Part shown: piece after piece, positions 9,908-40,555 of the stretch
Numbering within the stretch: position 1 is the stretch's first letter
Layout: every line of letters starts with the position of its first letter
Source of the DNA: a virus
Virus genome (UHGV): UHGV-0322864
DNA: 40,716 bases
Direction: 5' to 3' (one strand)
Made by a program: the position numbers and the translations under genes
The notes under the pieces: generated by a model
Told to the model about the DNA's origin: nothing
Database searches by the model: none
What the model saw: only the letters and a program-made list of their open reading frames with translations

Positions 9908-9916
9908 AATTCCTCC

Positions 9917-10720: not shown

Positions 10721-10732
10721 AAGGCACCTCCA

Positions 10733-11224
10733 TTAATATTTACCTTCGGTGTAAAGATTAGCTTCTGCAACTCTTCTATTATGAAGACCCTGACTTCTCT
10801 GCTTCTCTCCCTTGACCGTTATTTTATCCCAACGAAGAAATTCGGAATAAACATCCCCCTTAACATCTCCATTGATAACCTTCCTTAACTTAGATGTGCT
10901 CAAAGCACCACTGCCAACATTGAAGTTGAAAGAAGTGAGTGCATCAAACTCATGAACTAGTAAAGGAACCTTTATGTTCTTCTGAGTAGCACGAACAGAG
11001 TCTTGTGTGTCTCTATCTAGCAGAGCTAGACAATCCTCTATAGAATACGTTAATCCTTGTCTAACCGGATAACCATTCATATCGCGCGTAGCCCCTACAC
11101 ATATAGTCCATATACCTGCGGAATCTTTATAAGCCTTGGTTCTCATACCCTCATGCTTCATGATGAATTCCATTCCAGCTGGGCTTAAGTTTAATTGTAC
11201 AGGTGGCAATGCGACGTTATCCAT
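10733..11224 (-). CDS. GH24 (T4-type) lysozyme
   Basis: KHEGMRTKAYKDSAGIWTICVG carries the T4-lysozyme catalytic spacing E-(9)-D-(6)-T; 163 aa. Confidence 0.85.
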   Translation of the reverse strand: MDNVALPPVQLNLSPAGMEFIMKHEGMRTKAYKDSAGIWTICVGATRDMNGYPVRQGLTYSIEDCLALLDRDTQDSVRATQKNIKVPLLVHEFDALTSFNFNVGSGALSTSKLRKVINGDVKGDVYSEFLRWDKITVKGEKQRSQGLHNRRVAEANLYTEGKY

Positions 11225-11253
11225 TTCTAACCTCCTTTTGTAGTCCCTTTAAA

Positions 11254-11472
11254 TTAAGGTAGTATCTTTCTCAGAGCGTTAGATTCAGCATCAGGGCAAA
11301 TAACAACTAAGTTATTTTGAATTGTTCTCTGCTTACATTGAGAGCTGAGTTTCTCTACTGGAGCAGGATCAGTTACTAATGGATGAACTGCGCCTACAGG
11401 GACTGCGGTCGATACCACAACACCTGCACCTAAACAGATTAAACCATATGCAGCTTGTTTCATCATTTTCAT
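11254..11472 (-). CDS. small secreted/membrane protein next to the lysozyme (lysis-associated candidate)
   Basis: 72 aa; N-terminal hydrophobic segment MKMMKQAAYGLICLGAGVVVSTAVPVGA, two Cys in the remainder; SD AGGAGA before the ATG. Confidence 0.45.
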   Translation of the reverse strand: MKMMKQAAYGLICLGAGVVVSTAVPVGAVHPLVTDPAPVEKLSSQCKQRTIQNNLVVICPDAESNALRKILP

Positions 11473-11564
11473 TTGAGTGTCTCCTATATATTAACCTCTT
11501 GGGATATATTAGTTTCATTACTTACTAAGGGTACTTACTACTAAAGCCCCCGAAGGGGCTTATC

Positions 11565-13673
11565 TCACTTGTTAGATTTGAGTTCAGCAATCTCTGCTTT
11601 AAGGGTGTCGATTTGTTCCATCAAAGCCAGAATAGCTTCGTGGTGAAGACCAATCGCAATACCAGTAGAATCTGGAGATAGGACACCTTTGACAACTGTT
11701 CCATCAGGGAGGGTTCTGTCTGGGCCTGTATAGACCAACTCTGGATAGATATCCTGAACTTCTTGAGCAATGAACCCAATACCAAACTGGCCCCCGTCTA
11801 AGCGTCGCCAAGTGTACCCATGTAGTTTCTTCATCTTCTCAAGAGGTTCTTCTATCTTAGCAATATCCTTTTTAATTCGGATATCCGAATTACTCACCCA
11901 GTTAGCAGGAGCTATGGCACTACCAAACTGGTTAAACAGCCAGTCCACATTCACCCCTGCTCCTGAGAATCTAAGTATGCCAAAGCTATCAACACCCACG
12001 TTCTCCGCCATAGACATGGAGAAAACAGCACCCGGTGTTCCGGGATTACCCACTCTGCCTGTTAGCTCACAAATAAACGCCGGGGATGTTGTAGGCCACT
12101 GACCATCAGACCCTAACTTAGAAGCTGCAATGAAACCTGACCCCACACCTCTAGTGTATGTTGGGATTGTTAGCTCCCCACCAAGGTCGAATCGAATCTC
12201 GGAACTTTTACCTTGATAGTCTTCAATTCTCCATACACCACCTCCACGTTGACCATAATTACCATCAGCACGCATAGAAGATCTTATGTGCATAGAGTCT
12301 CCAATATTATAGTCAGAGCGAACCTCACCACCCTTTATAGCCGTCCCTGTTCCAGGAGCAGCGGAATCTCCATTAATAACAGACCAAGAAGTATTAGCTG
12401 CAATAAATGCTCCGTTGGCACGAACTACCCATACGCCAGATACTTTGTTTGGAACGATCTCTGCTGAGTTGTTGCGTCCGTAGACGGCGCTGGAACGGGA
12501 GGCATCGAAGGTGATTCGCCCGTATGCGTCCCCAGAAGCTGCCAACGCGGTGAGGTTCGTGGCTGGCGTAACAGTTCCCCCAGCAAACGCCCCGCTGGGA
12601 CTGAAGTATATCCCACGTGTTCCGGCGTATGTGTTGTCTAAAGAGGCTGTGATATTAGGAGCGCTATTCAACGCGACAGTCATATCAGAAGCAGAAGTTT
12701 TTCCACCTCGGAAAAACAAACCTTCTATAGAGCCATCCTGAACACCGTTCCAATCTGGTACACGGAAAGTAGTTGTACCATTACCTAAAGAATATTTGCC
12801 ACGCTGAGATGGGTCTGCTAACCAATCAGAATCGTCAATAGGGGTTAGCATTTGAGCAAACACCCATAGTTCTGGATATTTAGCTCGTTCTAATAGCTGC
12901 CCATCTAAAGTCACGTCATATGGGTGTATAAGTGCTCGGCTTGCAGCCATATGAGGAGTACCAATTCCGTAGTTCATAATACCGTTCATTGTGGCTCCAC
13001 CTGAACCGCCACTATTTCGGAGCTGTCTCAAAGTAACCGCATCATAATCACCTACAGCATCAGGTACAGTTACCGGTTGAGTAAAAGTAACTTTCTGTGT
13101 GAGCTGTTTGATATCAGAGTTAATCCCTGTACGAGTAACACCAATAGTCCGACCTTTGGAATCTTTAACATAAGAACCAATCGCAGCGAAAGGTAAATCC
13201 TCGATCTCAGGGCGGTATCGTTTAGAATAAACAGGGTACTTAGTTTCTACCCCAGAGTCATTCTGGTCAACAACCTGAAGACGACCAGCAGAGTGAATTT
13301 CTACACCTTGAACTGAGGAAGCATAACTACCAATCTTAATTGAGTTATCAGTGGTGACTTTCATCATATCCACAGACTCTACACCATTAGCCCCAGCAGA
13401 ACGGAAAGGGATGTTATTATCTACAAAAGGGTCTGCTTTGAACAAAGCACCTTCCATGATAGGTTGAATTGAATCTAATACATAATCTTTAGATGCACCT
13501 TCTGTTTTAGTTTGATAAATATCAGCTGCATCTGTTTTCTGTAGATATTTACCTGTTAAATCTACTGCACCAGCTACTCCGTCTACAGTAGAAACCCCAA
13601 CAACTGCTGCATCTCTATTGATTACAACATGTGGCATCATTATCCCAGATTTGGGCATTAATTCTCTAGCCAT
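11565..13673 (-). CDS. tail fibre with phage tail-collar-like module and C-terminal intramolecular chaperone (peptidase S74-like) domain
   Basis: Collar-like DGQLLERAKYPELW...GKYSLGNGTTTFRVPDWNGVQ; C-terminal SDIRIKKDIAKIEEPLEKMKKLHGYTWRRL...GLHHEAILALMEQIDTLKAEIAELK matches the auto-cleaving chaperone pattern. Confidence 0.8.
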   Translation of the reverse strand: MARELMPKSGIMMPHVVINRDAAVVGVSTVDGVAGAVDLTGKYLQKTDAADIYQTKTEGASKDYVLDSIQPIMEGALFKADPFVDNNIPFRSAGANGVESVDMMKVTTDNSIKIGSYASSVQGVEIHSAGRLQVVDQNDSGVETKYPVYSKRYRPEIEDLPFAAIGSYVKDSKGRTIGVTRTGINSDIKQLTQKVTFTQPVTVPDAVGDYDAVTLRQLRNSGGSGGATMNGIMNYGIGTPHMAASRALIHPYDVTLDGQLLERAKYPELWVFAQMLTPIDDSDWLADPSQRGKYSLGNGTTTFRVPDWNGVQDGSIEGLFFRGGKTSASDMTVALNSAPNITASLDNTYAGTRGIYFSPSGAFAGGTVTPATNLTALAASGDAYGRITFDASRSSAVYGRNNSAEIVPNKVSGVWVVRANGAFIAANTSWSVINGDSAAPGTGTAIKGGEVRSDYNIGDSMHIRSSMRADGNYGQRGGGVWRIEDYQGKSSEIRFDLGGELTIPTYTRGVGSGFIAASKLGSDGQWPTTSPAFICELTGRVGNPGTPGAVFSMSMAENVGVDSFGILRFSGAGVNVDWLFNQFGSAIAPANWVSNSDIRIKKDIAKIEEPLEKMKKLHGYTWRRLDGGQFGIGFIAQEVQDIYPELVYTGPDRTLPDGTVVKGVLSPDSTGIAIGLHHEAILALMEQIDTLKAEIAELKSNK

Positions 13674-27759: not shown

Positions 27760-27788
27760 TTGACAGTCTTTTCCTTTATTATATAGTT
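27760..27788 (+). promoter_or_regulatory. sigma70-type promoter for the first early operon
   Basis: TTGACA - 16 nt - TATAGT; a second TTGACA lies 30 nt downstream (27790-27795) without a good -10. Confidence 0.6.
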
Positions 27789-28969: not shown

Positions 28970-29335
28970 ATGTGGTTTATTAAATTCATCGTTAAAATGG
29001 TTGTAGGCTTCTTTCTGGTCGTTCTTCTGTTAGGTGTCCTGTTATCGGCTATGGGTAGCGTTAAGGCTGCAACGTTTTCCCCTGCTACGGTTGACGGGTT
29101 GCAATGTACCTATCTCGTAGAGAATTACGAAACTGGTAAAAAGTCACCTAAAGTTATTATTTTGCATGTAAATGATTTCGATCATGTACAATCATACGAT
29201 AAAACTATTCAACTGGTAAACGAATCCAATGGTAAACAAATCACGGTCGATCACTTGATGCGCTCATCGTTGACGCTCTTTGATGAGTCCATGAATGAAA
29301 TGGCATCCGGTAACGGTCAATGTGTAAATCCATAG
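28970..29335 (+). CDS. membrane or secreted protein (121 aa)
   Basis: N-terminal TM/signal MWFIKFIVKMVVGFFLVVLLLGVLLSAMG; followed by an intrinsic terminator. Confidence 0.5.
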   Translation: MWFIKFIVKMVVGFFLVVLLLGVLLSAMGSVKAATFSPATVDGLQCTYLVENYETGKKSPKVIILHVNDFDHVQSYDKTIQLVNESNGKQITVDHLMRSSLTLFDESMNEMASGNGQCVNP

Positions 29336-29411
29336 GACTAATCTTTCTCCTGTATTGTGCCGTGGTCATGCCTATGGTCATAATCTATCTGATGCTTTAA
29401 ATCCTTCCTGT

Positions 29412-29439
29412 AAGCCTCCTAGTGAGGCTTTTCTATTTT
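29412..29439 (+). terminator. intrinsic terminator closing the first early operon
   Basis: AAGCCTC-CTAGT-GAGGCTT followed by TTCTATTTT. Confidence 0.6.
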
Positions 29440-29596
29440 CTAAGGTGATTGTATCCCTTACTCCCTTTTAGCTCGTTATAGTGCGTTCTAGGCCGCTAAA
29501 TATCGCTTTACAAGCCATTTTCTATGATGTATCACGCGCTCCCGCTCTTTTATCTTCCCTATAGTGAAAAAGTTTAAAATAATTTGCTTTACCCTA

Positions 29597-29624
29597 TTGC
29601 ATAGCCATAAAACTGGCGTATACT
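29597..29624 (+). promoter_or_regulatory. weaker sigma70-like promoter (P0) of the tandem cluster
   Basis: TTGCAT - 16 nt - TATACT. Confidence 0.35.
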
Positions 29625-29722
29625 GATTTCTATCGGGTACGATGTAAAACATACAAGGCAAGGAAACTTGCCCCGCTCTTTAAAAATCAGGCTAGAAAGT
29701 GAAAATATTCTTAAAAAGAGTA

Positions 29723-29751
29723 TTGACACCAGAAAAAGCCTGATATATAGT
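29723..29751 (+). promoter_or_regulatory. consensus sigma70 promoter P1
   Basis: A-rich UP-like TTAAAAAGAG, then TTGACA - 17 nt - TATAGT. Confidence 0.7.
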
Positions 29752-29867
29752 GAGCATAAGTCAGCGATGACGTGAAATATCCCGCTCTTTAAAAACTTAT
29801 CATCTTGCCCTTTCGCATAGATTCAAGCGAGATAAGGGAACGGAATAAAAGAAGATGATAAAAAGAG

Positions 29868-29895
29868 TTGACAAGCTAACACGGTGTGTTAAGCT
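29868..29895 (+). promoter_or_regulatory. sigma70 promoter P2
   Basis: ATAAAAAGAG then TTGACA - 16 nt - TAAGCT. Confidence 0.5.
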
Positions 29896-30024
29896 ACAAA
29901 TGCAGTAACCGCTCTTTAAAAATATGAATCATAAGTTAAGCCTCACCGCTTAATCTTCAATCAAATATAGCTGATTGATATATCCTCCCAATAAGGGGAG
30001 CGACGAAAAAGATTAAAAAAGTGG

Positions 30025-30053
30025 TTGACAGCTAAAACAGCATGATTCATAAT
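30025..30053 (+). promoter_or_regulatory. sigma70 promoter P3
   Basis: ATTAAAAAAGTGG then TTGACA - 17 nt - CATAAT. Confidence 0.65.
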
Positions 30054-30975
30054 GAGCACTCACTAAGCAAATCATCGCGAAGTGAACAGCGTAACAACGG
30101 CTAACAGTTGCATAGTGTGAGAAAGCACACTGATAGATTTACCGCTCTTTAATAATTTAAACATTCTCCTATATCGGTTGAATATGCTTGATGATAATAA
30201 CCATCGGAAAGCATACCAGATAAAACGGTGTAAGATTCTCTAAACTATCAGAGAAAACAATCTTACAATCCCTTGCTGGAAACGTCACCACTGATAAACG
30301 GATTCATTGAGTGTACGCAAAGACTTAAGCTAATCGCCCACGGTTAAGGGTAGCGGCGGTCATCGCTAACAAGGCGCTACAGTGAAAGAAGTTAATCAGG
30401 GTAGGCAAGCCCGAAGAATTAACGCTCAATTGAGAGCGGCGGGGAGTGGTTAAAAAGTGGCAAATTGCTATTTAACAATAAGGTTTAGTGTGAACGTTTA
30501 CGATGTGAACGGCTTGAGATTCATCACAAGATGAAAGTACATAGTCGGTTTATGTAGTAAACTTGCCGAAAGATATAAAACGTCAGAACATTAGACGGTC
30601 AATGACTCTTTCACAATAGCATCCCGTTGTGGGCGATGGCTAGTGATTGAGAGTTGATACAAAAGGATAGGCGAGAGCGAAAGCAAAGTAGACGATATTG
30701 CCGACGGTTACAATAAACGTAACTAATTAGAGTCGGACGCACTGCCTTATTGTGATGATTGATCATCGCTATCAGGTCGGCTTCGTTTATAGCGACTAAT
30801 TAAAGATACCAGATGAAACATCACGGATAAGGGGGCGGCAAGGTTAACTCCTGATAAGACCGCCCCGCTTACCTATAACTACTTAACAACGAGTGGTTAT
30901 AGTTAAGTTAATAGTGACTTAAACAAGCTCATAGAGAGCGGGGCATAGTGCCCTAACAATTGAAAGGTGAATATC

Positions 30976-31875
30976 ATGGCTAAAGTTTTTAATCTGGTAA
31001 AAGAATCTGGTTTTAACGCACTGGCTAACAACATTCGTAGCAATAACGCGGCGATTAAGCAAGATGTTTCTAACTTCCTGTTAGGCCATTTGCAGCACTT
31101 TCGTAGCAACGGCAAGAAGTTAGATGTATTGCAGTCGGCGGTTGATTTTCTGTTAACCGAACGTTTTCGTGATATGGATGTGATCGCCACTGCAATTACT
31201 TTCTTAACTCCTATCAAGTTTAACACCGATGCGGCAAATGGTCGTAAAAAGTGGATTAATCTGGAAGGTGAGGCGAAAGCGAAAGAAGATGCGAAAGAAG
31301 CGCAAATTAAGGCCAAAATGGAACAAAACCGCGCTCGCTGGTCAAACGCTTTCGAAAACTTTGCTTTAGGTCGTGAAATTGAAGTCGATAACCCTAACTT
31401 TTACAAGGGTTGTAATGACAACGTGGCGGCACACCTGCAAATACCGGCGAAAAACAAGGAAGATTTTAATCAGGATATTTACGCTTTAGTTGAACGCTTG
31501 AATGCAATCCGTATTGAAGCCAAATTACTGGCTGATGAGCGCAACGGCGCAACTAGCGATAACACTATCGCCCTGAGTGAAGAAGTTGGGAAGGTTAAAA
31601 AGTCCTTTGATTCACTCATCAAGAAAGTCACGGCCTCAATGGTAGCGATCTCGGATGATTATCTGATGAACGCATCAAGCAAGGAATTAGAATCACTCGA
31701 TTCATACGCTGATGAAATGGAAAAGACTGTTGCAGCTATGCAGGAGAAGTTAGAAAGTCTGCGCGGTCGTATCTCTTCAACGGTTGCTACCCGTACCGAA
31801 CAAGCGGCGAAAGCAGAAGAGGAAGAAGTGTTGCGTAAAGCGGCTGAAATTATGGCGGCACGTCAAGCGGCATAA
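30976..31875 (+). CDS. hypothetical helical protein (299 aa), first gene after the promoter cluster
   Basis: Track begins at GTG 30967; ATG 30976 with SD AAAGGTGA is preferred; coiled-coil-like C-terminal half; followed by a strong terminator. Confidence 0.6.
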   Translation: MAKVFNLVKESGFNALANNIRSNNAAIKQDVSNFLLGHLQHFRSNGKKLDVLQSAVDFLLTERFRDMDVIATAITFLTPIKFNTDAANGRKKWINLEGEAKAKEDAKEAQIKAKMEQNRARWSNAFENFALGREIEVDNPNFYKGCNDNVAAHLQIPAKNKEDFNQDIYALVERLNAIRIEAKLLADERNGATSDNTIALSEEVGKVKKSFDSLIKKVTASMVAISDDYLMNASSKELESLDSYADEMEKTVAAMQEKLESLRGRISSTVATRTEQAAKAEEEEVLRKAAEIMAARQAA

Positions 31876-32205: not shown

Positions 32206-32426
32206 TATTCAGTAGCAATTTTGGCAAGTGTCCTATTTGTGAGAAACATCGCAGCACGGGAAACCATCGCAAATGTAGTAAGATATTACAGCGCCAACGT
32301 GATAACAATCATTGGGATACTGTACACACTAACCAGCGTAAAGAAGAAGTTAGGAAAATGGCTGTTAAAGCGTCATTTGCTCAATCCACCCGTATTGAAC
32401 ATATTCAAAGGTATCAAGCATTATGA
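32202..32426 (+). CDS. small basic Zn-finger-like protein
   Basis: ATGA overlap with the upstream stop; CPICEKHRSTGNHRKC motif; 74 aa. Confidence 0.45.
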   Translation: MIFSSNFGKCPICEKHRSTGNHRKCSKILQRQRDNNHWDTVHTNQRKEEVRKMAVKASFAQSTRIEHIQRYQAL

Positions 32427-32632
32427 TCACTAACATTTCAGAATTTAAGAAAGCACCTTCCCGCTTGTTAGGCCGTCGTGTTGTATATCTTTATAGCAAT
32501 AAAGGTAAATGTACAACCGGACGAATTACAACGGTGAGTAGTGCTAACAAGAAGCTGTTAAAGTTATGCGTGGCTATGGATGATGGTACAATCCTGCTAC
32601 GCAGTTGGAAGTCATTTAGTTTACTCGATTAA
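32423..32632 (+). CDS. hypothetical small protein (69 aa)
   Basis: ATGA overlap with the upstream gene. Confidence 0.45.
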   Translation: MITNISEFKKAPSRLLGRRVVYLYSNKGKCTTGRITTVSSANKKLLKLCVAMDDGTILLRSWKSFSLLD

Positions 32633-33385: not shown

Positions 33386-33775
33386 ATGTTGACATTGACT
33401 ATTTATTATGAGGCAGGGAATCAGCCAACCGCATGTAAGGCGTTAGTTGCGGATACCGTGATAAATAGAATGGCCCAACGAAAACTGACCGCTGAACAGG
33501 TGATAAGACAAAAGAACCAGTTTGAGTGGATTCCGGTACTATTAAAACAGGAGAAACCTTATAAACGTTATGTAAAGCTGATTCGTGATAAAAATCCGAT
33601 GACTAAGCAAGCCATTGGAGAAAGCGAGCGGCTGGCTAAACGTGCCCTTAAGAAGAATTATGTTCCGCTGTATAGTGGGACTTACTTTCAGAGTAAGAGC
33701 GAAGGGGTGCCAAAATGGTATGCCAATCCTATGTATTGTGGTGATTTAGTGTTCGATAATAGCTCTAGGGAATAA
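33386..33775 (+). CDS. SleB/CwlJ-like cell-wall hydrolase (Hydrolase_2-like) domain protein
   Basis: N-terminal YYEAGNQPTACKALVADTVINRMA resembles the conserved (Y)AEARGE...VA.VI.NR signature; 129 aa; preceded by a strong terminator. Confidence 0.55.
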   Translation: MLTLTIYYEAGNQPTACKALVADTVINRMAQRKLTAEQVIRQKNQFEWIPVLLKQEKPYKRYVKLIRDKNPMTKQAIGESERLAKRALKKNYVPLYSGTYFQSKSEGVPKWYANPMYCGDLVFDNSSRE

Positions 33776-33974: not shown

Positions 33975-34271
33975 ATGACTTTAGAAGTATATAAATTCCT
34001 TTTTGTAAGCTGTTTAACTATCAGCGTTCTAGGATTTATTGTTCTCAGAAACAAAGCAGCAGGCTGGGAGAGAATGTATAAATCCCTAGTCCGAGTGGAT
34101 AAGATGTATAATGAGAAAGTTAAAGTAACACTCAACGATCTTATTATGCAAGTTGAAGACAGAAACAAACGTCTTCAGAATCTCAATCATGAAGTGTTGC
34201 GCCTTGCTCGTGCTAATGAAGACTTGCGAGTGGCTATTGCTAAGCAGCAGGGGATTAATAGTGAAAGTTAA
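33975..34271 (+). CDS. N-terminal TM plus coiled-coil protein (i-spanin-like or membrane effector)
   Basis: TM FLFVSCLTISVLGFIVL then helical heptad-like NEKVKVTLNDLIMQVEDRNKRLQNLNHEVLRLARANEDLRVAIAK. Confidence 0.5.
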   Translation: MTLEVYKFLFVSCLTISVLGFIVLRNKAAGWERMYKSLVRVDKMYNEKVKVTLNDLIMQVEDRNKRLQNLNHEVLRLARANEDLRVAIAKQQGINSES

Positions 34272-34494
34272 TATTAAGCCTGATCATACTACACTCCGTT
34301 TAAATAACATGAGGCCGGGCGCTCTCTTTCATTTTAAAGGTTCTCTCTATATCAGAACCGGATTAACAACTGACTATCACGTCAATTGTGTTAACGTGGT
34401 TTCTGGAGAGCTTATTGTTATCAGCAAAAACGAAGTCTGCCAAGTGCGCAATGATCTCCACATAACTAACATAGAGGATAAAGATGAAGATTGA
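34261..34494 (+). CDS. small early protein, paralog family member a
   Basis: Track ORF 34153..34494 overlaps the upstream gene; GTG 34261 with SD AGGGGA is in frame and gives a 77-aa product with the family motifs (PGALF...LYIR...CVNVVSGEL). Confidence 0.45.
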   Translation: MKVNIKPDHTTLRLNNMRPGALFHFKGSLYIRTGLTTDYHVNCVNVVSGELIVISKNEVCQVRNDLHITNIEDKDED

Positions 34495-34741
34495 TCTTAA
34501 GGTAAATGAACCGTCATTGTGTGTCGGCGATCTTGTTCTCGGGGATGTATTCCAAATCAGAGAAACACGATCAGATTTCTACATGGTTGTTCAGTTGTTT
34601 TCGTCACAAATCAAGGAAGTTAAACCCTCTGATGGTGGGTGTGTTGTCCTAAGTCTGGCAAATAAAAAAGTCATTAAGCTCAACTCAAAAAGTAAAGTTA
34701 TCCTCGTCCCTGATGTAGTAATTACTAATAAAGGCAAGTAA
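34484..34741 (+). CDS. small early protein, paralog family member b
   Basis: SD AGAGGA; motifs LGDVF, FYMVV. Confidence 0.55.
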   Translation: MKIDLKVNEPSLCVGDLVLGDVFQIRETRSDFYMVVQLFSSQIKEVKPSDGGCVVLSLANKKVIKLNSKSKVILVPDVVITNKGK

Positions 34742-34960
34742 ATGGAAATTAAAGTAGTTGATTATCCTAAATATGCGAATGCAGAAGATGTTAAAGGTGG
34801 TGATGTTTTCTCTTACGATAAACGTTTCTGGCTGATGCTAGAAGATAAAACCCCTGATGGTTTGTGTAAGGCTGCTAACTTGAGCAGTGGTTATGTTGAA
34901 GTCTTCGGCCTATCAACCACTGTTATGCCACGTCCTGATCTTCATGTAACTCAAAAGTAA
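34742..34960 (+). CDS. small early protein, paralog family member c
   Basis: Motifs GGDVF, RFWLML, AANLSSGYV; 72 aa. Confidence 0.55.
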   Translation: MEIKVVDYPKYANAEDVKGGDVFSYDKRFWLMLEDKTPDGLCKAANLSSGYVEVFGLSTTVMPRPDLHVTQK

Positions 34961-34971
34961 GGTAAGTGATT

Positions 34972-35277
34972 ATGTCTGTTTCTTCTTTTGTGATATGTAA
35001 ACCTACTGTAACGATTCGTGCTCAAATGAAACACTGTTCTGGTGTCACTTATCTGGAGTTTAATCACAGTGAGAGCCGATACAACCCCGGATTTACAGTA
35101 GAGATTAAATCTCCGTGGTTTAATATGACATTGTTGCCGGAAGAAGTAGAGTCAGCATGTCGTGGCATTAAGACGGGGAGTTTGAGTCTTCTATCTTCTA
35201 GTTTGGGTGATGAGTTCCTGCCTTTGATTCAGAAAGGTGTGGCTAACGTTCGTAAAATGATGGAATCAGTTAAGTAA
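34972..35277 (+). CDS. hypothetical protein (101 aa)
   Basis: Track starts at GTG 34966; ATG 34972 has better SD spacing (AAGG N9). Confidence 0.5.
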   Translation: MSVSSFVICKPTVTIRAQMKHCSGVTYLEFNHSESRYNPGFTVEIKSPWFNMTLLPEEVESACRGIKTGSLSLLSSSLGDEFLPLIQKGVANVRKMMESVK

Positions 35278-35635
35278 CATCGACTTATAGCCCTTGTGTT
35301 TATCAGAGGGCTATGTGAGGGTGTTCCTCATTAACTTATTAATTCAGGCATATGCCACACCGCTAGGGAGAGCTTGCTCGAACATCCGGTGTTAGACTAA
35401 AACCTGTTAATTTTCGAAAGACTTTCCGATATGTAGGGGTACGTATTGGTTTGGGATTCAGGAGACTTCCTAGGGGTAGGGAGTCTTCACCAGTTGGAAT
35501 AAGAGATAGCTCTAGAACCTGAACTCTTAGGCAGAGAGGGTCGTCAATGAGTACGCGGTCAGAATCAGTCTACTGACTAGGGCTATCCCTTATATCAACT
35601 GGCAATAATGCCTCCACTAACAAAGAGAGATAGGT

Positions 35636-35776
35636 ATGAAAGTATCAACCAAACGTATGAACCGCCCTGAACGTATGGATGCAGTAGCAAATGGTGCTCT
35701 GAAACTGGAAGGCTTCTGGGTTCATGCAATGTCAGCAATCCGTAACAAGCAAGGTAATTGGACCTATGCCGGTTAA
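35636..35776 (+). CDS. possible small protein (46 aa)
   Basis: ATG with SD-like GAGAGATAGG; overlaps the next start; below the track cutoff. Confidence 0.3.
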   Translation: MKVSTKRMNRPERMDAVANGALKLEGFWVHAMSAIRNKQGNWTYAG

Positions 35777-35975
35777 GACAACCCATGTGATAGGTATGCG
35801 AGAGATCATTCGCATTGCCTTGATGGAACACACTGATCGCAACATGCAACTAACTCAAATCTCTAAGTGTCTTAATTGCTCAAGAGATACGGCTAAGGAG
35901 TTAATGTTCGCATTCCTTTATAATGCAGAAGATGAGTTTTTACAAAACCGTCTGCTTGGTTTAAAACAGAAATGA
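35766..35975 (+). CDS. small helix-turn-helix-like protein
   Basis: Internal Met of track ORF 35724..35975; REIIRIALMEHTDRNMQLTQISKCLNCSRDTAKELMF resembles an HTH. Confidence 0.4.
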   Translation: MPVKTTHVIGMREIIRIALMEHTDRNMQLTQISKCLNCSRDTAKELMFAFLYNAEDEFLQNRLLGLKQK

Positions 35976-36055
35976 ATAAAAGGCTGCCCAATCGGGTGGC
36001 CTTTGTTGTTTTAATTAAGGGACAGCTCTTACTTAAACTAACAAGAGGTGCTTAT

Positions 36056-36400
36056 ATGAGACGCATGGTTAAAGATTGGGTAACTAAATCAGGTCTTCGT
36101 GCTGTGATTATGCACATGAACGACTCCCATTTTTGTGGATATGTAGAGCTACCAGACAGCTTAAAACATAAAAACTTCACCGGATATAACGGGAAGGAAG
36201 AAGTTTGTTATGTAAGTGTTCATGGTGGTGTCACATGGCAAGACACCCTTGAAGAGATGGGTGGTTTAAATACAATCGGATTTGATTGTGCCCATGCATG
36301 TGATAAGACACGGTTCAACCCTAACGGGATACCAAGAACAGAAGAGTTCTGCATCAACGAATGCGAACAAATGGCTGAACAACTGAGAGATCTTGAATAA
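36056..36400 (+). CDS. hypothetical protein with His/Cys motifs (114 aa)
   Basis: ATG 36056 with SD AAGAGGTG (track began upstream at 35972); motifs HMNDSHFCGY, VHGGVTW, GFDCAHACD; function not recognised. Confidence 0.5.
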   Translation: MRRMVKDWVTKSGLRAVIMHMNDSHFCGYVELPDSLKHKNFTGYNGKEEVCYVSVHGGVTWQDTLEEMGGLNTIGFDCAHACDKTRFNPNGIPRTEEFCINECEQMAEQLRDLE

Positions 36401-36401
36401 A

Positions 36402-36578
36402 ATGTCTAAGCAAACAATCAAGAATACGCAAGCTGGTTACTCTTATGTCAACTCTCCTTGCTGTGGTGCTCGTGTCAATCTGGTTAAGGAAGAGGTTCGT
36501 ATCGTTCAGCGTGGCGCTACTGTTGTTCGTTCATGCTGTGTCTGTGGTAATGATATTTTTATCAAAGGTAAAGTATGA
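36402..36578 (+). CDS. small Zn-ribbon protein
   Basis: SPCCGARVN ... RSCCVCGNDIF gives a four-Cys ribbon-like arrangement; 58 aa from ATG 36402. Confidence 0.45.
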   Translation: MSKQTIKNTQAGYSYVNSPCCGARVNLVKEEVRIVQRGATVVRSCCVCGNDIFIKGKV

Positions 36579-36826
36579 AAAACTTTCAAGCTGCACCAAT
36601 AACTAAAGTGATTGAAGTTGATGGTGTGATGATGACTGTTCCTCTGAACACTCGTTACATTGCAATTGACAAGATGGGTTATGTATGGGCTTGGAAGATT
36701 AAGCCTAGCTATAACGCACTGTTCGACGAGTTTGTTTGTACTGGTACGTATAGCCCTACATTCTTGGGTTTGTTTGGAGAGTTTGAAGGTAAGTATAAAA
36801 TCATCACTCTCCCTGCTTGTGCTTGA
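36575..36826 (+). CDS. hypothetical small protein (83 aa)
   Basis: ATGA overlap with the upstream gene. Confidence 0.5.
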   Translation: MKNFQAAPITKVIEVDGVMMTVPLNTRYIAIDKMGYVWAWKIKPSYNALFDEFVCTGTYSPTFLGLFGEFEGKYKIITLPACA

Positions 36827-36850
36827 GGTTAATGTGATTTAAACCAGCTT

Positions 36851-36958
36851 TAACGAGAACTCTTAATGAGGATGTATCTTCCCCGCCTTCTAAGCGGTCG
36901 TTAAAGAAGTAATTGGAGTATGCAGGTTCGAGGCCTGTCATCCTCGCTAAGAGTTCTT
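36851..36958 (+). repeat. long imperfect inverted repeat upstream of the HNH gene
   Basis: AACTCTTAATGAGGATG pairs with CATCCTCGCTAAGAGTT (15/17), about 60 nt apart. Confidence 0.5.
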
Positions 36959-36966
36959 GAGGTATT

Positions 36967-37506
36967 ATGAAGCTAGATTTAAGTAAAGCAGTTGTTGATA
37001 AAGGTGTTGGCTATTTGTATGTGTACCAACCAACACACCCTATGGCTAATAAAGCTGGAAAGGTGTATGTTCATAGGTATGTTGCTCAAAATTTCTATGG
37101 TGTCGAACTGAACTCTGACCTAGTGGTTCATCACAAGGATGAGAATAAGTTAAACAATGAGCCATCTAATTTAGAGATCATGACTTATGAGGAGCATAGC
37201 AGGCATCATCATGGGGCTGTTATGGAAGAAAGGTTATGTTCTTTTTGTGGAGAGATTTACCTTGTTTCAGAGAATAGCAACCAAAGGCTTTGCTCACAGG
37301 TTTGCGCCCAATTGGATAGTAGGAGATTTGAGATAACAAAAGAATCTCTTCAATCACTGATAGATACATACCCTGTATATGTAGTAGGACGTCTGTTAGG
37401 TGTTAGTGATGTAGCCATTCACAAAAGATGCAGAAGGCTTGGAGTTGTTAAAAAGCCCCAAGGATTCTGGTTAACCGGAGAAAGACTGAATGAAAAAATT
37501 AAGTGA
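36967..37506 (+). CDS. HNH homing-type endonuclease
   Basis: HNH signature VVHHKDENKLNNEPSNLEIMTYEEHSRHHH, then Cys pairs CSFCGE...CSQVC; 179 aa. Confidence 0.85.
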   Translation: MKLDLSKAVVDKGVGYLYVYQPTHPMANKAGKVYVHRYVAQNFYGVELNSDLVVHHKDENKLNNEPSNLEIMTYEEHSRHHHGAVMEERLCSFCGEIYLVSENSNQRLCSQVCAQLDSRRFEITKESLQSLIDTYPVYVVGRLLGVSDVAIHKRCRRLGVVKKPQGFWLTGERLNEKIK

Positions 37507-37816
37507 TGATGCCATTCAGATGTTAAATGATAGGGCAGAGGAAAGAAAAGATCTTGCTAAGGCTGTTCCGTATTTAGCACCTATTTTATTATTTGTATCC
37601 AGCTTTTACTTTCCAGTTCTTTGGTTTATCACTGGACCTTTGATACTATTTGCTGTGGTTTGGTGTACGTGCAAGTTCACCAAATTTTTATACACAAAAA
37701 GTGTAAAGGTCTATGCAAACGCTAAGAGAGATGGGGAGTTAGATACTCTTGTAGCTGTGATTCTGCTTCTTTCTTTTGTGGCATATCTACTACTAAGCAA
37801 GTGGGGTGTGTTATGA
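37490..37816 (+). CDS. two-TM membrane protein
   Basis: Hydrophobic segments LAPILLFVSSFYFPVLWFITGPLILFAVVWC and LVAVILLLSFVAYLLL; overlaps the upstream stop. Confidence 0.5.
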   Translation: MKKLSDDAIQMLNDRAEERKDLAKAVPYLAPILLFVSSFYFPVLWFITGPLILFAVVWCTCKFTKFLYTKSVKVYANAKRDGELDTLVAVILLLSFVAYLLLSKWGVL

Positions 37817-38109
37817 GTTGGGGTGGTGTAATATCCTTAATCTGTATCTTCATCGTCTGTGTGGCCCTTACAGGCTGCGTACAGAGCCGTCCTGATGGGT
37901 GGTGTGCAGTAGCAGTAAATGGTGCATGTCTATCTACCATTAAAAATGGTAAACCTGTAGCCTCTGGTGATGTTGATATGAGATATGCAGGTATTAAATG
38001 TGTGACTGGATGGAACAGTAAAGAGTGTTCTGGTTCAGTTGAAACTACGGTCAGAGAGTGGGATTATCCTTCAGAGGATAACTCTTCATCTAACGTGAGT
38101 ATTTACTGA
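37813..38109 (+). CDS. Cys-rich lipoprotein (superinfection-exclusion candidate)
   Basis: Signal peptide with lipobox ALTGC (MSWGGVISLICIFIVCVALTGC); five further Cys in the mature part; track start was GTG 37801. Confidence 0.55.
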   Translation: MSWGGVISLICIFIVCVALTGCVQSRPDGWCAVAVNGACLSTIKNGKPVASGDVDMRYAGIKCVTGWNSKECSGSVETTVREWDYPSEDNSSSNVSIY

Positions 38110-38118
38110 GGCGGTAGT

Positions 38119-38361
38119 ATGACAACTCACTACTGGAACACCAAGAAACTTCTGGAAGAAATGAACAGCCAGAGCCATAATCAAATGGTTTCTATGCTTC
38201 GAATGGATGCCAGAGCCTTGCGCTTTCGTATCAAGTGTAAGAAGTTTGACACTGGCGAGTATTACATTCTGAAAGAACGTGTACAGAAAACATTCTTCCT
38301 CCTTTATGGTAGGAAGTTAGGCGTTAATTACGAACATTGGAACACGGATTATGATTATTGA
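38119..38361 (+). CDS. hypothetical small protein (80 aa)
   Basis: SD GAGG upstream of ATG. Confidence 0.5.
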   Translation: MTTHYWNTKKLLEEMNSQSHNQMVSMLRMDARALRFRIKCKKFDTGEYYILKERVQKTFFLLYGRKLGVNYEHWNTDYDY

Positions 38362-38572
38362 TGCAAAAAATGGTGACACTACAGTTGAGATGTCCACCCT
38401 CAAAGATGGGTCTGTATTCAAATGGAACAACGGGTTTTGGGTAAAGACTTCCACTATCTCTTCTGGCTTTCACAAAGCAGTAAACCTACATAACGGTGAG
38501 ATGGATGGGTTTGGACCAACATCCCAAGTGGTCCATATGCCCGAAGCTACACTGACTGGTGTTAATTATTAA
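38351..38572 (+). CDS. small early protein, paralog family member d
   Basis: Motifs DGSVF, GFWVK, AVNLHNGEM; closest to member c. Confidence 0.55.
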   Translation: MIIDAKNGDTTVEMSTLKDGSVFKWNNGFWVKTSTISSGFHKAVNLHNGEMDGFGPTSQVVHMPEATLTGVNY

Positions 38573-38584
38573 TCAGAGGTTGTT

Positions 38585-38719
38585 ATGAAAGTCAAACGTA
38601 TGCTCTTTAGACAGGGGATGTACACCCTCAATGAATACCCAAAAGGTGACACAACCAAGTGGAGTGTTGGGGATTGGATTTCATACATAGACGAGCATGG
38701 TGTCTGGCTTGTGAGTTAA
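38585..38719 (+). CDS. possible small protein (44 aa)
   Basis: ATG with SD GAGG; tightly packed between neighbours; below the track cutoff. Confidence 0.3.
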   Translation: MKVKRMLFRQGMYTLNEYPKGDTTKWSVGDWISYIDEHGVWLVS

Positions 38720-38731
38720 CAAGGAGTTCAT

Positions 38732-38905
38732 ATGAGCTGTTATGGTGGTGGAGAAGTGTATGATGACGATGACATGGAATCCAATGGTACATGTCCTGAT
38801 TGTGGGTGTGAAACTTTTGATGGTGTGTCAGTATACCCTGCCTGTAGTTACTCACCAGTGATCTGTAAAACATGTGGTGATCAGCCATGTGACCAGTCTT
38901 GCTAA
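38732..38905 (+). CDS. possible Cys-rich metal-binding small protein (57 aa)
   Basis: SD AAGGAG; eleven Cys including CPDCGC and CKTCGDQPCDQSC. Confidence 0.35.
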   Translation: MSCYGGGEVYDDDDMESNGTCPDCGCETFDGVSVYPACSYSPVICKTCGDQPCDQSC

Positions 38906-38914
38906 GAGAATATT

Positions 38915-39046
38915 ATGACTGAAGAATTTTTAAAGTGGTTTGGTGATACCTTCAAAGAGTATCTATTCTCTCCAGAAGACCTTGAAGAACTGAAAACCTA
39001 CACTTGGTTGGCTTGGAGAGATAGCCGACGAGAGATGAATAAGTAA
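38915..39046 (+). CDS. possible small protein (43 aa)
   Basis: ATG 10 nt after the upstream stop. Confidence 0.3.
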   Translation: MTEEFLKWFGDTFKEYLFSPEDLEELKTYTWLAWRDSRREMNK

Positions 39047-39057
39047 GAGACGATTAA

Positions 39058-39315
39058 ATGGATTTACTTGATATTTTTATCTCAGTTTACTTTATTGGAG
39101 TATTCCTTTCTGTTTTAGTGCTGAAACTGCTATACAAGAAGGGTTTATTAAAAGGGGTCATTACAACAGGGTCTACCAGCTCTGAACCTGATGAGATGAT
39201 GGTTGTGCTCTTAATTGTGTTGTGGCCTATCTCAATACTGGCAGGAGTTTTTTATCCAATAGGTTGGCTTCTGTTTAAAGCATATGATGCAGTTATGCAT
39301 TTTATCTTTAAGTAA
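39058..39315 (+). CDS. two-TM small membrane protein
   Basis: LDIFISVYFIGVFLSVLVLKLL and MMVVLLIVLWPISILAGVFYPIGWLLF. Confidence 0.5.
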   Translation: MDLLDIFISVYFIGVFLSVLVLKLLYKKGLLKGVITTGSTSSEPDEMMVVLLIVLWPISILAGVFYPIGWLLFKAYDAVMHFIFK

Positions 39316-39733
39316 TATCGTGAAGGATTCTTACGAGAGTCCTTTGAGATAGGACTTCAGATCTCCTATCAAACTAACATTCATGTAACTAGCCCATAAG
39401 GGCGTTACCCTTTAATAACCCAGCCCACTAAGGGGGCGGGAGTTTAGTGCTGGATTAGCATAACGCTTATTCCTACAAAGGCAACCGATTGTTAGATCTT
39501 ACATGCAATATTAATTAATAGGATATGGGAGGGTTCGTCCCCTCCCCCTATTTATAAATTACAGGTATAGCTTATGAGGCTAATTAATGCAGAGCCTACG
39601 GTAAAGCAGTCGCCCGTGGTCGAATGACCGTATGCCCATTGGATGCATTCCTTTGGTGATGGCTAGGGAGTCCGAGCGTAGGTCCGAACCCTACACCTGT
39701 AACCAAATCGAATAACATCTAATTGGAGGATGT

Positions 39734-40045
39734 ATGAAAGCTCGAAGAACTATATGGACTCCGATACAGATTGAAAATCTTCGGAGATTAATCAAAGAGT
39801 ACTCTGTTCAAGAGGTTGCTAAGATTATGAATGTAACGGAGAATGCAGTTAATACAGCTTGCACTAAGTTCGGTATCTCTAGAGCTGTAATCCGAGTTAA
39901 GTGGTCTAAAGAAGAAGACCAGTTCCTTATCCGTAATGCTGGGTTCATGTCTATTCAGAGAATGGCTGACATGCTCGGTAGAAGTTATGCTGCTGTGCAG
40001 AATAGGGCATGTATGCACCTTAACATTAGCCTAAAACTTAAATAG
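39734..40045 (+). CDS. tandem HTH (Myb/SANT-like) DNA-binding protein, putative regulator
   Basis: Two ~45-aa repeats each starting with Trp and carrying an HTH-like core (WTPIQIENLRRLIKEYSVQEVAKIMNVTENAV; WSKEEDQFLIRNAGFMSIQRMADMLGRSYAAVQNR); SD GGAGGA. Confidence 0.55.
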   Translation: MKARRTIWTPIQIENLRRLIKEYSVQEVAKIMNVTENAVNTACTKFGISRAVIRVKWSKEEDQFLIRNAGFMSIQRMADMLGRSYAAVQNRACMHLNISLKLK

Positions 40046-40053
40046 GAATCAAT

Positions 40054-40299
40054 ATGAAGATCATCCCAAAGATTAAAGATAACACTGTTTCACTGGCTAC
40101 AATTATTCCCGGAAACCCTTTCGTAGTTCAGAGAGGAACAGCATCTCCTCAGTATTACATCCGTGTCAGTAACGTGTCCAACAAAATCTCTGTAGAAGAG
40201 GGTTGGATTACGACAGTAAATCTACTGACTGGTGTACTGGGTGTTATGAAAAGTGATGCCCCAGTTGAAGTGATTCGTATGTCTGTGGTTCAGGAGTAA
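40054..40299 (+). CDS. small early protein, paralog family member e
   Basis: Motifs PGNPF, QYYIRV, TVNLLTGVL. Confidence 0.5.
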   Translation: MKIIPKIKDNTVSLATIIPGNPFVVQRGTASPQYYIRVSNVSNKISVEEGWITTVNLLTGVLGVMKSDAPVEVIRMSVVQE

Positions 40300-40306
40300 C
40301 AAGTAG

Positions 40307-40555
40307 ATGAGCACCATTAATATTAAAGTTAAGCATAAGAAAGAGAACATCCTCAGGGTTATGGATTTATTCAGAGCCGACGTCTTTACTTTAAAACAGT
40401 GTCCAACTTCCCATACCTACATGCTAACGAACCCGAGCAATGGTCTTAAGCCCGCTGGGGCGGTTAATCTGGGAACTGGAGAACTTCGGACAATTGCTGG
40501 TGATATGGTTGTTGATGAGAAGTTTAGTAAAGTCGAAATGATCTTAACTCCTTAG
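40307..40555 (+). CDS. small early protein, paralog family member f
   Basis: Motifs ADVFTL, TYML, AVNLGTGEL. Confidence 0.5.
   Translation: MSTINIKVKHKKENILRVMDLFRADVFTLKQCPTSHTYMLTNPSNGLKPAGAVNLGTGELRTIAGDMVVDEKFSKVEMILTP

What the first reader, a model, noticed from the sequence alone, without database searches (positions are those of the whole stretch)
34261..40555. Six-member paralogous family of ~75-aa early proteins
Seen in sequence: six small plus-strand ORFs (34261-34494, 34484-34741, 34742-34960, 38351-38572, 40054-40299, 40307-40555) share collinear motifs: N-terminal M-(K/E/I)-I-x-x-K, a G-(D/S/N/A)-(V/P/L)-F box near residue 20, an aromatic triplet (FYM, FWL, FWV, YYI, LYI, TYM) near residue 30 and (A/V/C)-(V/A)-N-(L/V)-x-(S/T)-G-(E/Y/V)-(L/M/V) near residue 50. 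They sit as a tandem triplet, a singleton and a tandem pair. Inference: a diversifying family of host-interacting or anti-defence early proteins, expanded by duplication. I do not recognise the fold.
Basis: seen in the sequence. Interest (0 to 1): 0.75.

Follow-up and report, generated by a model that had tools for sequence, protein, structure and literature searches.

The report
Six small beta-barrel early phage paralogues
Six small genes in the early operon of this phiEco32-like (Kuravirus) coliphage are real but ancient relatives of one another; they belong to a large, unnamed and functionally uncharacterised family of about 75-residue SH3-like beta-barrel phage proteins, which includes N4 gp21 and LUZ24 gp7.

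Summary
All six ORFs exist at the stated coordinates and are homologous. A profile of any five finds the sixth ahead of every other ORF in the window (z 7-17 against shuffles). A profile built only from unrelated phage and metagenome members scores all six at E 1e-12 to 1e-21. AlphaFold models of the most typical copy (m4) and the most divergent copy (m6) give the same six-strand SH3-like barrel (pLDDT 83-84). The window is a Kuravirus, and the genes lie in the early, sigma-70-driven cluster. N4 gp21 and LUZ24 gp7 are members, and the domain also occurs as fused doublets and as repeats in giant phage proteins. Related phages carry 3 to 11 copies drawn from at least 15 old orthogroups. Copies within one genome are at most 38% identical, so there has been no recent duplication. 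Orthologues are under purifying selection (dN/dS 0.14-0.28), not gene-wide positive selection. LUZ24 gp7 is not toxic to its host, and phage LAMP lacks the triplet. My best reading, which is inferred, is that these are dispensable, non-enzymatic binding modules for host-specific accessory or counter-defence roles. Their function is still untested.

The parts
34261..34494 (+). m1, 77 aa, GTG start. First gene of the tandem triplet. Orthologue of phiEco32 phi32_115 and MN05 gp115; phrog_16423.
   Evidence: E 1e-15 against a profile that excludes the window copies and their close relatives.
34484..34741 (+). m2, 85 aa. Second gene of the triplet, with about 9 extra residues in the variable beta3-beta4 loop. 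phi32_114 type; phrog_9955.
34742..34960 (+). m3, 72 aa. Third gene of the triplet. phi32_113 type; phrog_6570. Found in 67 phage records.
38351..38572 (+). m4, 73 aa. The singleton, downstream of the phage lipoprotein gene. It is a rare allele: at least 60% identity in only 4 phage records (Nieuwekanaalvirus EP335 and Bas89). Most Kuraviruses carry a 41-45% identical allele (phi32_104 type) at this locus.
   Evidence: AlphaFold model with pLDDT 83 and pTM 0.70.
40054..40299 (+). m5, 81 aa. First gene of the pair, directly after the two-HTH regulator gene. phi32_96 type; phrog_7431. Present in all seven related early regions examined and in 76 phage records.
40307..40555 (+). m6, 82 aa. Second gene of the pair and the most divergent copy. 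phi32_95 type; phrog_12612.
   Evidence: AlphaFold model with pLDDT 84 and the same strand order as m4. Its BFVD structural neighbours are the same set as for m4.
29723..30053 (+). Context, not part of the family. Two near-consensus sigma-70 promoters (29723-29751 and 30025-30053) lie in the long non-coding spacer, with a third at 27760-27787. These are the presumed early promoters of the long operon that contains the six genes.
   Evidence: 11 of 12 consensus matches. The layout matches the SU10 description of early promoters. That these promoters transcribe the six genes is inferred, not shown.

Best explanation
Shown:
- The six ORFs are ancient paralogues, each encoding one stand-alone domain of about 75 residues with a six-strand SH3-like beta-barrel.
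- They lie in the early, sigma-70-transcribed gene cluster of a Kuravirus (phiEco32/SU10-like) coliphage.
- They belong to a very large, very divergent and so far unnamed phage superfamily. Members include N4 gp21, LUZ24 gp7, and phiEco32 gp95-98, gp104 and gp113-115.
- Only the hydrophobic core and the turn glycines are conserved (MKI..., G-[DE]-V-F, Y-M, V-N-L-x-T-G, V). The beta3-beta4 loop and the surface positions vary freely.

Inferred mechanism: the proteins are non-enzymatic binding modules. Each orthogroup uses its variable loop and surface to bind a different host macromolecule, or possibly a phage one, stoichiometrically soon after infection. They act as dispensable accessory factors that tune takeover or neutralise strain-specific host barriers. 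That would explain why related phages carry different subsets (3-11 copies) of at least 15 old orthogroups, exchanged as cassettes at three fixed hot spots, while each orthogroup is itself kept under purifying selection.

The structural and evolutionary part is about 0.9 certain. The binding-module and accessory-role part is about 0.4 certain. No target is known.
For: Homology:
- Leave-one-out profiles, shuffle control, an external profile and PHROG cross-hits.

Fold:
- AlphaFold models of m4 and m6 have pLDDT 83-84 and the same strand order.
- In BFVD, independently predicted models of orthologues of the other paralogues, and of N4 gp21, match at TM 0.6-0.87.
- The nearest PDB folds are the EF-P/eIF5A N-domain, Tudor and PWWP.

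No enzyme signature:
- The conserved columns are hydrophobic residues or glycines.
- There is no Pfam, NCBIfam or PDB sequence match.

Not a general nucleic-acid binder:
- The median pI of 128 stand-alone relatives is 5.3, and only 10% are above pI 8. The window copies carry net charges of -2.4 to +3.5.

Early expression, by synteny:
-.

Not found in the SU10 virion/lysate proteome:
-.

Dispensable and modular:
- Phage LAMP lacks the whole triplet. Copy number runs from 3 to 11.
- There are at least 15 orthogroups and no recent duplicates.
- The m4 allele is rare.

Selection:
- dN/dS is 0.14-0.28. Amino-acid identity is 65-89%, against 93-100% for neighbouring genes.

Not toxic:
- LUZ24 gp7 is a member (E 2e-10). 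It was one of 13 early proteins expressed in P. aeruginosa, of which only gp4, gp6, gp9 and gp11 inhibited growth (PMC4635203).

The domain behaves as a reusable module:
- There are 13 fused doublets among the best 150 representatives.
- One protein is a SprT-like protease followed by 5 repeats.
- Phage proteins of 1,600-3,200 aa carry several copies.
Against: - No binding partner, phenotype or expression measurement exists for any of the six genes. The functional statement rests on exclusion and analogy.
- Three of the six (m2, m5, m6) have pI around 9.2, so nucleic-acid binding is not excluded for them.
- Purifying selection with a conserved core fits many other roles equally well.
- One orthogroup (the m5 type) is present in every related genome examined, so it may have a core function rather than an accessory one.
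- The AlphaFold models share much of their input alignment, so the two are not fully independent.
- Non-toxicity was shown for one distant member, in a different host.
Confidence: 0.45

Rival explanations
1. They are small nucleic-acid-binding proteins, working like KOW, Sm, Tudor or PWWP barrels. They would bind phage or host RNA or DNA and regulate early transcription or translation, for example the early-to-middle switch.
For: - The closest solved folds are the RNA/ribosome-binding EF-P/eIF5A N-domains and the ssDNA-binding PWWP.
- m2, m5 and m6 have pI around 9.2.
- The m5/m6 pair sits directly after a two-HTH regulator gene.
Against: - Most of the superfamily is acidic: median pI 5.3, with 61% below pI 6.
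- The net charge of the basic copies is only +1.5 to +3.5.
- No basic position is conserved.
- The fold matches are weak (E at least 7.5e-3, TM at most 0.59).
- There is no profile-level link to the EF-P N-domain.
Confidence: 0.2
2. They are host shut-off factors: growth-inhibitory early proteins that block an essential host machine, in the way phiEco32 gp79, T7 Gp2 or N4 gp8 do.
For: They lie in the early 'host takeover' cluster, and they are small like many known inhibitors.
Against: - LUZ24 gp7, a member, did not inhibit growth when expressed.
- Phage LAMP lacks the triplet, and related phages carry very different subsets.
- There is no similarity to gp79.
Confidence: 0.07
3. They are substrates or carriers for the phage's amidoligase / RimK-like ATP-grasp / glutamine amidotransferase / gamma-glutamyl cyclotransferase gene cluster. 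For example, they could be C-terminally or loop-modified small proteins.
For: - Kuraviruses and LUZ24-like phages both carry this enzyme cluster as well as family members.
- m1 and its orthologues end in an acidic K-D-E-D tail.
- The nearest fold, EF-P domain I, is a classic substrate for loop modification.
Against: - N4 has a member, but no such enzyme cluster is annotated in the 22 kb examined.
- Neither the tail nor the loop tip is conserved across the family.
- The family occurs in many unrelated phages.
- The idea rests on co-occurrence in two phage groups only.
Confidence: 0.05
4. The resemblance is chance, or the ORFs are not real genes.
For: Pairwise identities are only 16-27%, and several pairwise phmmer E-values are weak.
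Against: - Profile, shuffle and external-profile tests are all decisive.
- Orthologues are conserved with dN/dS well below 1.
- The genes are annotated in RefSeq relatives.
- The structure models are confident and concordant.
Confidence: 0.01

Closest known systems
Uncharacterised phage proteins: N4 gp21, LUZ24 gp7 (and probably PaP3 ORF65), phiEco32 gp95-98/104/113-115; PHROGs 6570, 7832, 7431, 8365, 16423, 9955 and 12612
   Same: - They belong to the same sequence superfamily. N4 gp21 scores E 9e-18 and LUZ24 gp7 E 2e-10 against the family profile, and both are still found with a Kuravirus-only profile.
- They have the same length and the same predicted fold.
- They are likewise encoded among the non-structural genes, upstream of the replication genes; LUZ24 gp7 was selected and tested as an early protein.
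   Different: N4 and LUZ24 each showed one clear copy in the stretch scanned, whereas Kuraviruses carry 3-11. None has a known function. The databases list them as separate families of unknown function rather than as one superfamily.
EF-P / eIF5A N-terminal KOW-like domain (Pfam EFP_N, PF08207), within the translation-protein SH3-like fold
   Same: It is the best structural match in the PDB: about 60 aligned residues, 16-21% identity, TM 0.5-0.6. The strand order is similar, and both have a long beta3-beta4 hairpin loop.
   Different: - There is no Pfam hit.
- hhalign against an EF-P N-domain alignment gives probability 0.5%.
- The functional KPGKG loop tip of EF-P has no counterpart; that loop is the most variable part of the family.
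- The phage proteins have an extra N-terminal strand (MKI...) and are stand-alone.
Tudor / PWWP / Agenet 'royal family' barrels
   Same: They share the small five- to six-strand SH3-like barrel and appear among the Foldseek hits. The family also has conserved aromatic residues (F23, Y30).
   Different: The matches are weak (E about 0.2). The conserved aromatics look like core residues. No aromatic cage could be tested here.
phiEco32 gp79, an 82-aa early RNA-polymerase-binding factor of the same phage group
   Same: It has the same size class, comes from the same phage group, and lies on the same strand downstream in the early-to-middle region.
   Different: It is unrelated in sequence, and the family profile does not hit it in phiEco32 or in the PDB.

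Membership tests
N4 gp21 / LUZ24 gp7-like small beta-barrel superfamily (unnamed; PHROGs 6570/7832/7431/8365/16423/9955/12612) | Significant match to a family profile built without the tested protein or its close relatives | tested here: met
   All six score E 1e-12 to 1e-21, while the next window ORF is at E about 1. Leave-one-out and shuffle controls agree.
N4 gp21 / LUZ24 gp7-like small beta-barrel superfamily | Stand-alone single domain of about 66-90 aa, starting M-K/E-I and carrying the core motifs G-[DE]-V-F, aromatic-M/I, V-N-L-x-T/S/N-G and a late V | tested here: met
   m6 has A instead of the first G, and m2 lacks the N and G of the second motif. The other four carry all the motifs.
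N4 gp21 / LUZ24 gp7-like small beta-barrel superfamily | Six-strand SH3-like barrel | tested here: met
   AlphaFold models of m4 and m6 only. BFVD models of orthologues of m1, m3 and m5 match at TM 0.67-0.85. These are predictions, not experimental structures.
EF-P/eIF5A N-terminal KOW-like domain (PF08207) | Pfam model hit at or above the gathering score | tested here: not met
   No hit for the six at E up to 1, nor for 134 members at E up to 0.01.
EF-P/eIF5A N-terminal KOW-like domain (PF08207) | Profile-profile similarity | tested here: inconclusive
   hhalign probability is 0.5%. The EF-P alignment that could be built was shallow (Neff 2), so remote homology is not excluded.
EF-P/eIF5A N-terminal KOW-like domain (PF08207) | Conserved basic loop tip (K/R in KPGKG) between beta3 and beta4 | tested here: not met
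   The corresponding positions 34-41 are the most variable in the family and differ in length between copies.
phiEco32 gp79-type RNA polymerase-binding factor | Sequence similarity to gp79 | tested here: not met
   The family profiles do not hit gp79 in the phiEco32 locus or any PDB chain. The gp79 sequence was read.
Growth-inhibitory host shut-off early proteins | Expression of the protein alone inhibits host growth | not testable with these tools
   The literature covers one member only. LUZ24 gp7 was among 13 proteins tested and was not among the four inhibitory ones. The six window proteins are untested.
Known anti-defence proteins (Acr, Ocr/Ard, Tad, Gad and others) | Sequence or structural match to a characterised anti-defence family, or a measured counter-defence activity | not tested
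   No anti-defence library was available. Nothing of this kind appeared in the Pfam, NCBIfam, PHROG or PDB searches.

The most novel reading that the evidence does not exclude
The six genes are the local tip of a previously unnamed pan-phage domain superfamily of more than 1,000 clusters at 50% identity. The domain would serve as a general, swappable target-recognition module in phage-host conflict. It is used solo in early operons, in arrays of up to 11 per genome, as fused doublets, as 5 repeats behind a SprT-like protease, and as 6 or more repeats inside 2,000-3,200-aa phage proteins. On this reading each Kuravirus orthogroup neutralises a different host factor or defence system, so the cassette repertoire would help set strain-level host range.
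Probability: 0.25. Interest if true: 0.65.

Novelty: new member of a known kind. Interest (0 to 1): 0.4.

Why it matters
Small early genes of unknown function make up most phage 'dark matter'. This work joins seven PHROG families of unknown function, and genes from model phages (N4 gp21, LUZ24 gp7, eight or nine phiEco32 genes), into one fold-defined superfamily that Pfam lacks.

The work also shows that Kuraviruses hold a variable repertoire of 3-11 copies at three fixed hot spots. That gives a concrete experiment: delete or swap the cassettes and measure plating efficiency on strain and defence-system panels.

If the copies do turn out to bind distinct host factors, the family would be a useful source of new inhibitors and of host-range determinants for therapeutic coliphages. 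If they do not, it remains an ordinary lineage-specific expansion of a common fold.

Tried and rejected
- Pfam, NCBIfam and PDB sequence searches with single proteins and with profiles found nothing.
- Foldseek against the PDB gave only generic SH3-like barrels at E of at least 7.5e-3.
- Homology to the EF-P N-domain, suggested by eye and by the fold hits, was not supported by hhalign with a single sequence or with a 12-sequence alignment.
- A relationship to phiEco32 gp79 was rejected.
- A possible seventh member at 32423-32632 scored E 0.04-0.9 in leave-one-out runs but was not recovered by the larger profiles, so I do not count it.
- T7 has no member in its first 20 kb.
- The search for related loci with the broad alignment failed because it had no conserved stretch.
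- The word-indexed search with the broad alignment added almost nothing.
- tblastn with single distant members finds only close relatives.
- The context of one metagenomic member was uninformative.
- Literature searches for N4 gp21, Kuravirus paralogues and CRISPRi-ART data gave nothing on these genes.
- Gene-wide positive selection was tested and rejected.
- Recent duplication was tested and rejected.
- No phage-sigma (gp36-type) promoter beyond chance lies upstream of the genes.


Full report
**What the window is.** The region 34000-40716 matches 111 phage records, almost all of them Escherichia or Shigella phages of the genus Kuravirus (phiEco32/SU10-like, Gordonclarkvirinae). Identity is about 90-93%, but only 55-60% of the length is covered, so this part of the genome is mosaic. 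Plus-strand genes run from about 27.8 kb to the end of the window. Perfect matches to the phiEco32 gp36-sigma promoter element TAATGTATA lie on the minus strand at 286 and 17797. Three near-consensus sigma-70 promoters lie on the plus strand at 27760, 29723 and 30025. This is the arrangement described for SU10 and phiEco32. [quoted passage not shown] Early expression of the six genes is therefore inferred from synteny and promoters. It was not measured.

**The observation.** All six ORFs exist as described. m1 uses a GTG start and has the same length as its RefSeq orthologue in MN05. The genes are tightly packed or overlapping, as expected for one operon. Pairwise identities are only 16-27% and some pairwise E-values are weak, so I tested homology in four ways.
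- Profiles built from any five copies rank the sixth first among all other stop-to-stop ORFs of the window, at E 4e-4 to 3.5e-9.
- Against 1000 shuffles of the left-out protein, z is 6.9-16.7 and no shuffle reaches the real score.
- PHROG profiles cross-hit between copies. Of 134 superfamily members, 75-123 each match five of those PHROGs.
- A profile of about 125 members from other phages and metagenomes, with the window copies and anything more than 35% identical to the tested copy removed, scores all six at E 1e-12 to 1e-21. The next ORF in the window is at E about 1.

No seventh member is detectable in the window.

**Fold.** AlphaFold2 models of m4 (pLDDT 83, pTM 0.70) and of m6, the most divergent copy (pLDDT 84, pTM 0.67), have the same order of elements: a short strand, a one-turn helix and then five strands. 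The two runs share much of their alignment, so they are not fully independent. BFVD models were made independently, however. For orthologues of m1, m3, m4 and m5, and for N4 gp21, they match the m4 model at TM 0.67-0.87, and the m6 model finds the same set. Against the PDB, the best matches are the N-terminal KOW/SH3-like domain of EF-P and eIF5A, followed by Tudor, Agenet and PWWP barrels. None is better than E 7.5e-3 or TM 0.59. The fold is therefore an SH3-like small beta-barrel with no specific solved relative. I tested a possible deep link to the EF-P N-domain with hhalign and found no support (probability 0.5%). The EF-P alignment available was shallow, so the test is weak.

**Size of the family.**
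- The word-indexed search found only orthologues of the six, on Kuravirus-sized contigs.
- The exhaustive profile search found 1,072 clusters at 50% identity with E up to 1e-3, but only 8 below 1e-10. The family is large and very divergent.
- Most members are stand-alone proteins of 66-90 aa with the consensus MKI..K....v.l.dLkpGDVF...efYMkT......aVNLxTGe....ed..V.pv.
- Among the best 150 there are 13 two-domain fusions, one SprT-like protease followed by five repeats (a Tenacibaculum MAG), and four proteins of 1,600-3,200 aa with several copies.
- One of these large proteins lies on a phage-like contig.
- No member matches Pfam, NCBIfam or a PDB sequence.
- Two genes of well-studied phages are members: N4 gp21 (E 9e-18, and 7e-8 with a Kuravirus-only profile) and LUZ24 gp7 (E 2e-10 and 3e-5).
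- T7 has none in its first 20 kb.

**Evolution within the phage group.** I scanned the early regions of six relatives with the family profile. The counts are 3 copies in LAMP (the whole triplet is missing), 6 in this window, 8 in MN05 and EcoN5, 9 in SU10 and phiEco32, and 11 in EP335. The copies always sit at the same three hot spots, and EP335 has one extra site. The 54 copies from these seven genomes fall into at least 15 orthogroups at 45% identity. No two copies in one genome are more than 38% identical, and the window copies share no DNA similarity. The duplications are therefore ancient, and present-day variation is gain, loss and replacement of cassettes. m4 is a rare allele: at least 60% identity in only 4 records, all Nieuwekanaalvirus-like, while 68 records carry a 41-45% identical allele at that locus. 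The m5 type is present in all seven relatives and in 76 records, and m3 is in 67 records. Between the window and its relatives, the family genes have dN/dS of 0.14-0.28 and 65-89% amino-acid identity. Conserved neighbours have 0.05-0.15 and 93-100%. They evolve faster but remain under purifying selection, so 'diversifying' in the sense of gene-wide positive selection is not supported.

**Function.** Five lines of evidence bear on it, and all of them are indirect.
- The conserved columns are hydrophobic core positions and turn glycines. The beta3-beta4 loop and most surface positions are free to vary, and no catalytic-looking set of residues is conserved.
- The family is mostly acidic. The median pI is 5.3, and the window copies carry net charges of -2.4 to +3.5.
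- None of the SU10 members was among the 34 proteins detected in the virion/lysate proteome.
- LUZ24 gp7 was one of 13 early proteins expressed in P. aeruginosa, and it was not among the four that inhibited growth.
- LAMP does without the triplet.

Together these argue against an enzyme, a virion component, a general nucleic-acid binder and a host shut-off toxin. What remains most likely is a set of dispensable, stoichiometric binding modules with orthogroup-specific targets, acting early in infection. This is the profile expected of host-specific accessory or counter-defence factors. It is an inference with roughly 0.4 confidence. The main rival is RNA or DNA binding by the three basic copies, at about 0.2. 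A link to the amidoligase / RimK-like / GGCT enzyme cluster, which Kuraviruses share with LUZ24-like phages, is a low-probability idea worth one mass-spectrometry experiment.

**Novelty and verdict.** The genes themselves are annotated as hypothetical proteins in many genomes and sit in PHROGs of unknown function, so they are not new. I found no description of three things: their union into one SH3-like superfamily that includes N4 gp21 and LUZ24 gp7, the repertoire of 3-11 copies from at least 15 orthogroups in Gordonclarkvirinae, and the reuse of the domain in fused and giant phage proteins. Lineage-specific families of small early phage proteins on a common fold are a familiar kind of thing, and there is still no function. 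I rate the finding as a new member of a known kind, with interest 0.4.

Noticed in passing
window 36826-37816: Relatives (MN05, phiEco32, EcoN5, EP335, LAMP) carry a tRNA-Arg between the phi32_108-type gene and the lipoprotein gene. This window has no tRNA at all by ARAGORN or Rfam. At that place it carries an HNH_3 homing-type endonuclease ORF (36967-37506, Pfam E 2e-12) and then a 108-aa putative membrane protein.
   Followed up: partly
window 29300-31000: This is a non-coding spacer of about 1.6 kb between two early transcription units. It holds two near-consensus sigma-70 promoters and four copies of a 23-nt direct repeat with the core CCGCTCTTTAAAAA (29668, 29777, 29904, 30137). The repeats could be a regulator-binding site.
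   Followed up: partly
L012 6481-16152 (Logan contig SRR29078269_4801): A 3,223-aa protein on a phage-like contig contains at least six degenerate copies of the same small barrel domain and almost nothing else recognisable. Similar proteins of 1,600-2,400 aa exist (P0126, P0149, P0198). Their role is unknown; they could be injected or polyvalent proteins.
   Followed up: partly
P0158 (MFV0249145.1, Tenacibaculum MAG): This protein has a SprT-like zinc protease domain followed by five tandem copies of the family domain. It suggests the domain can act as a targeting module for an enzyme.
   Followed up: no
L005 (EcoN5) 7607-8100 and 12251-12481; L002/L003 gp115/gp116-type gene; window 33975-34271: Several family members are annotated in EcoN5 as 'DNA helicase', 'endolysin' or 'endonuclease' on the basis of HHpred. 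The 98-aa protein upstream of the triplet is called 'DNA helicase' in SU10 and phiEco32. These names look like over-annotation of 75-100-aa proteins.
   Followed up: no
L007 (phage LAMP, 68.5 kb): LAMP is a natural deletion variant. It lacks the triplet array and several other early genes found in 76-78-kb Kuraviruses, which shows that these genes are dispensable on its host.
   Followed up: partly
L013 (LUZ24) 7377-13075 versus L002/L003: LUZ24-like Pseudomonas phages share with Kuraviruses the block of COOH-NH2 ligase, amidoligase, glutamine amidotransferase, RimK-like ATP-grasp and gamma-glutamyl cyclotransferase genes, followed by primase/helicase. The two groups also share a member of the small barrel family. 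This points to an old common early/middle module.
   Followed up: no
window 34966-35277 and 33386-33775: The ORF directly after the triplet is a DUF7247 protein (E 4e-10). The gene two upstream of the triplet is a SleB-like cell-wall hydrolase (Hydrolase_2, E 2e-7) that is 100% conserved in four relatives.
   Followed up: no
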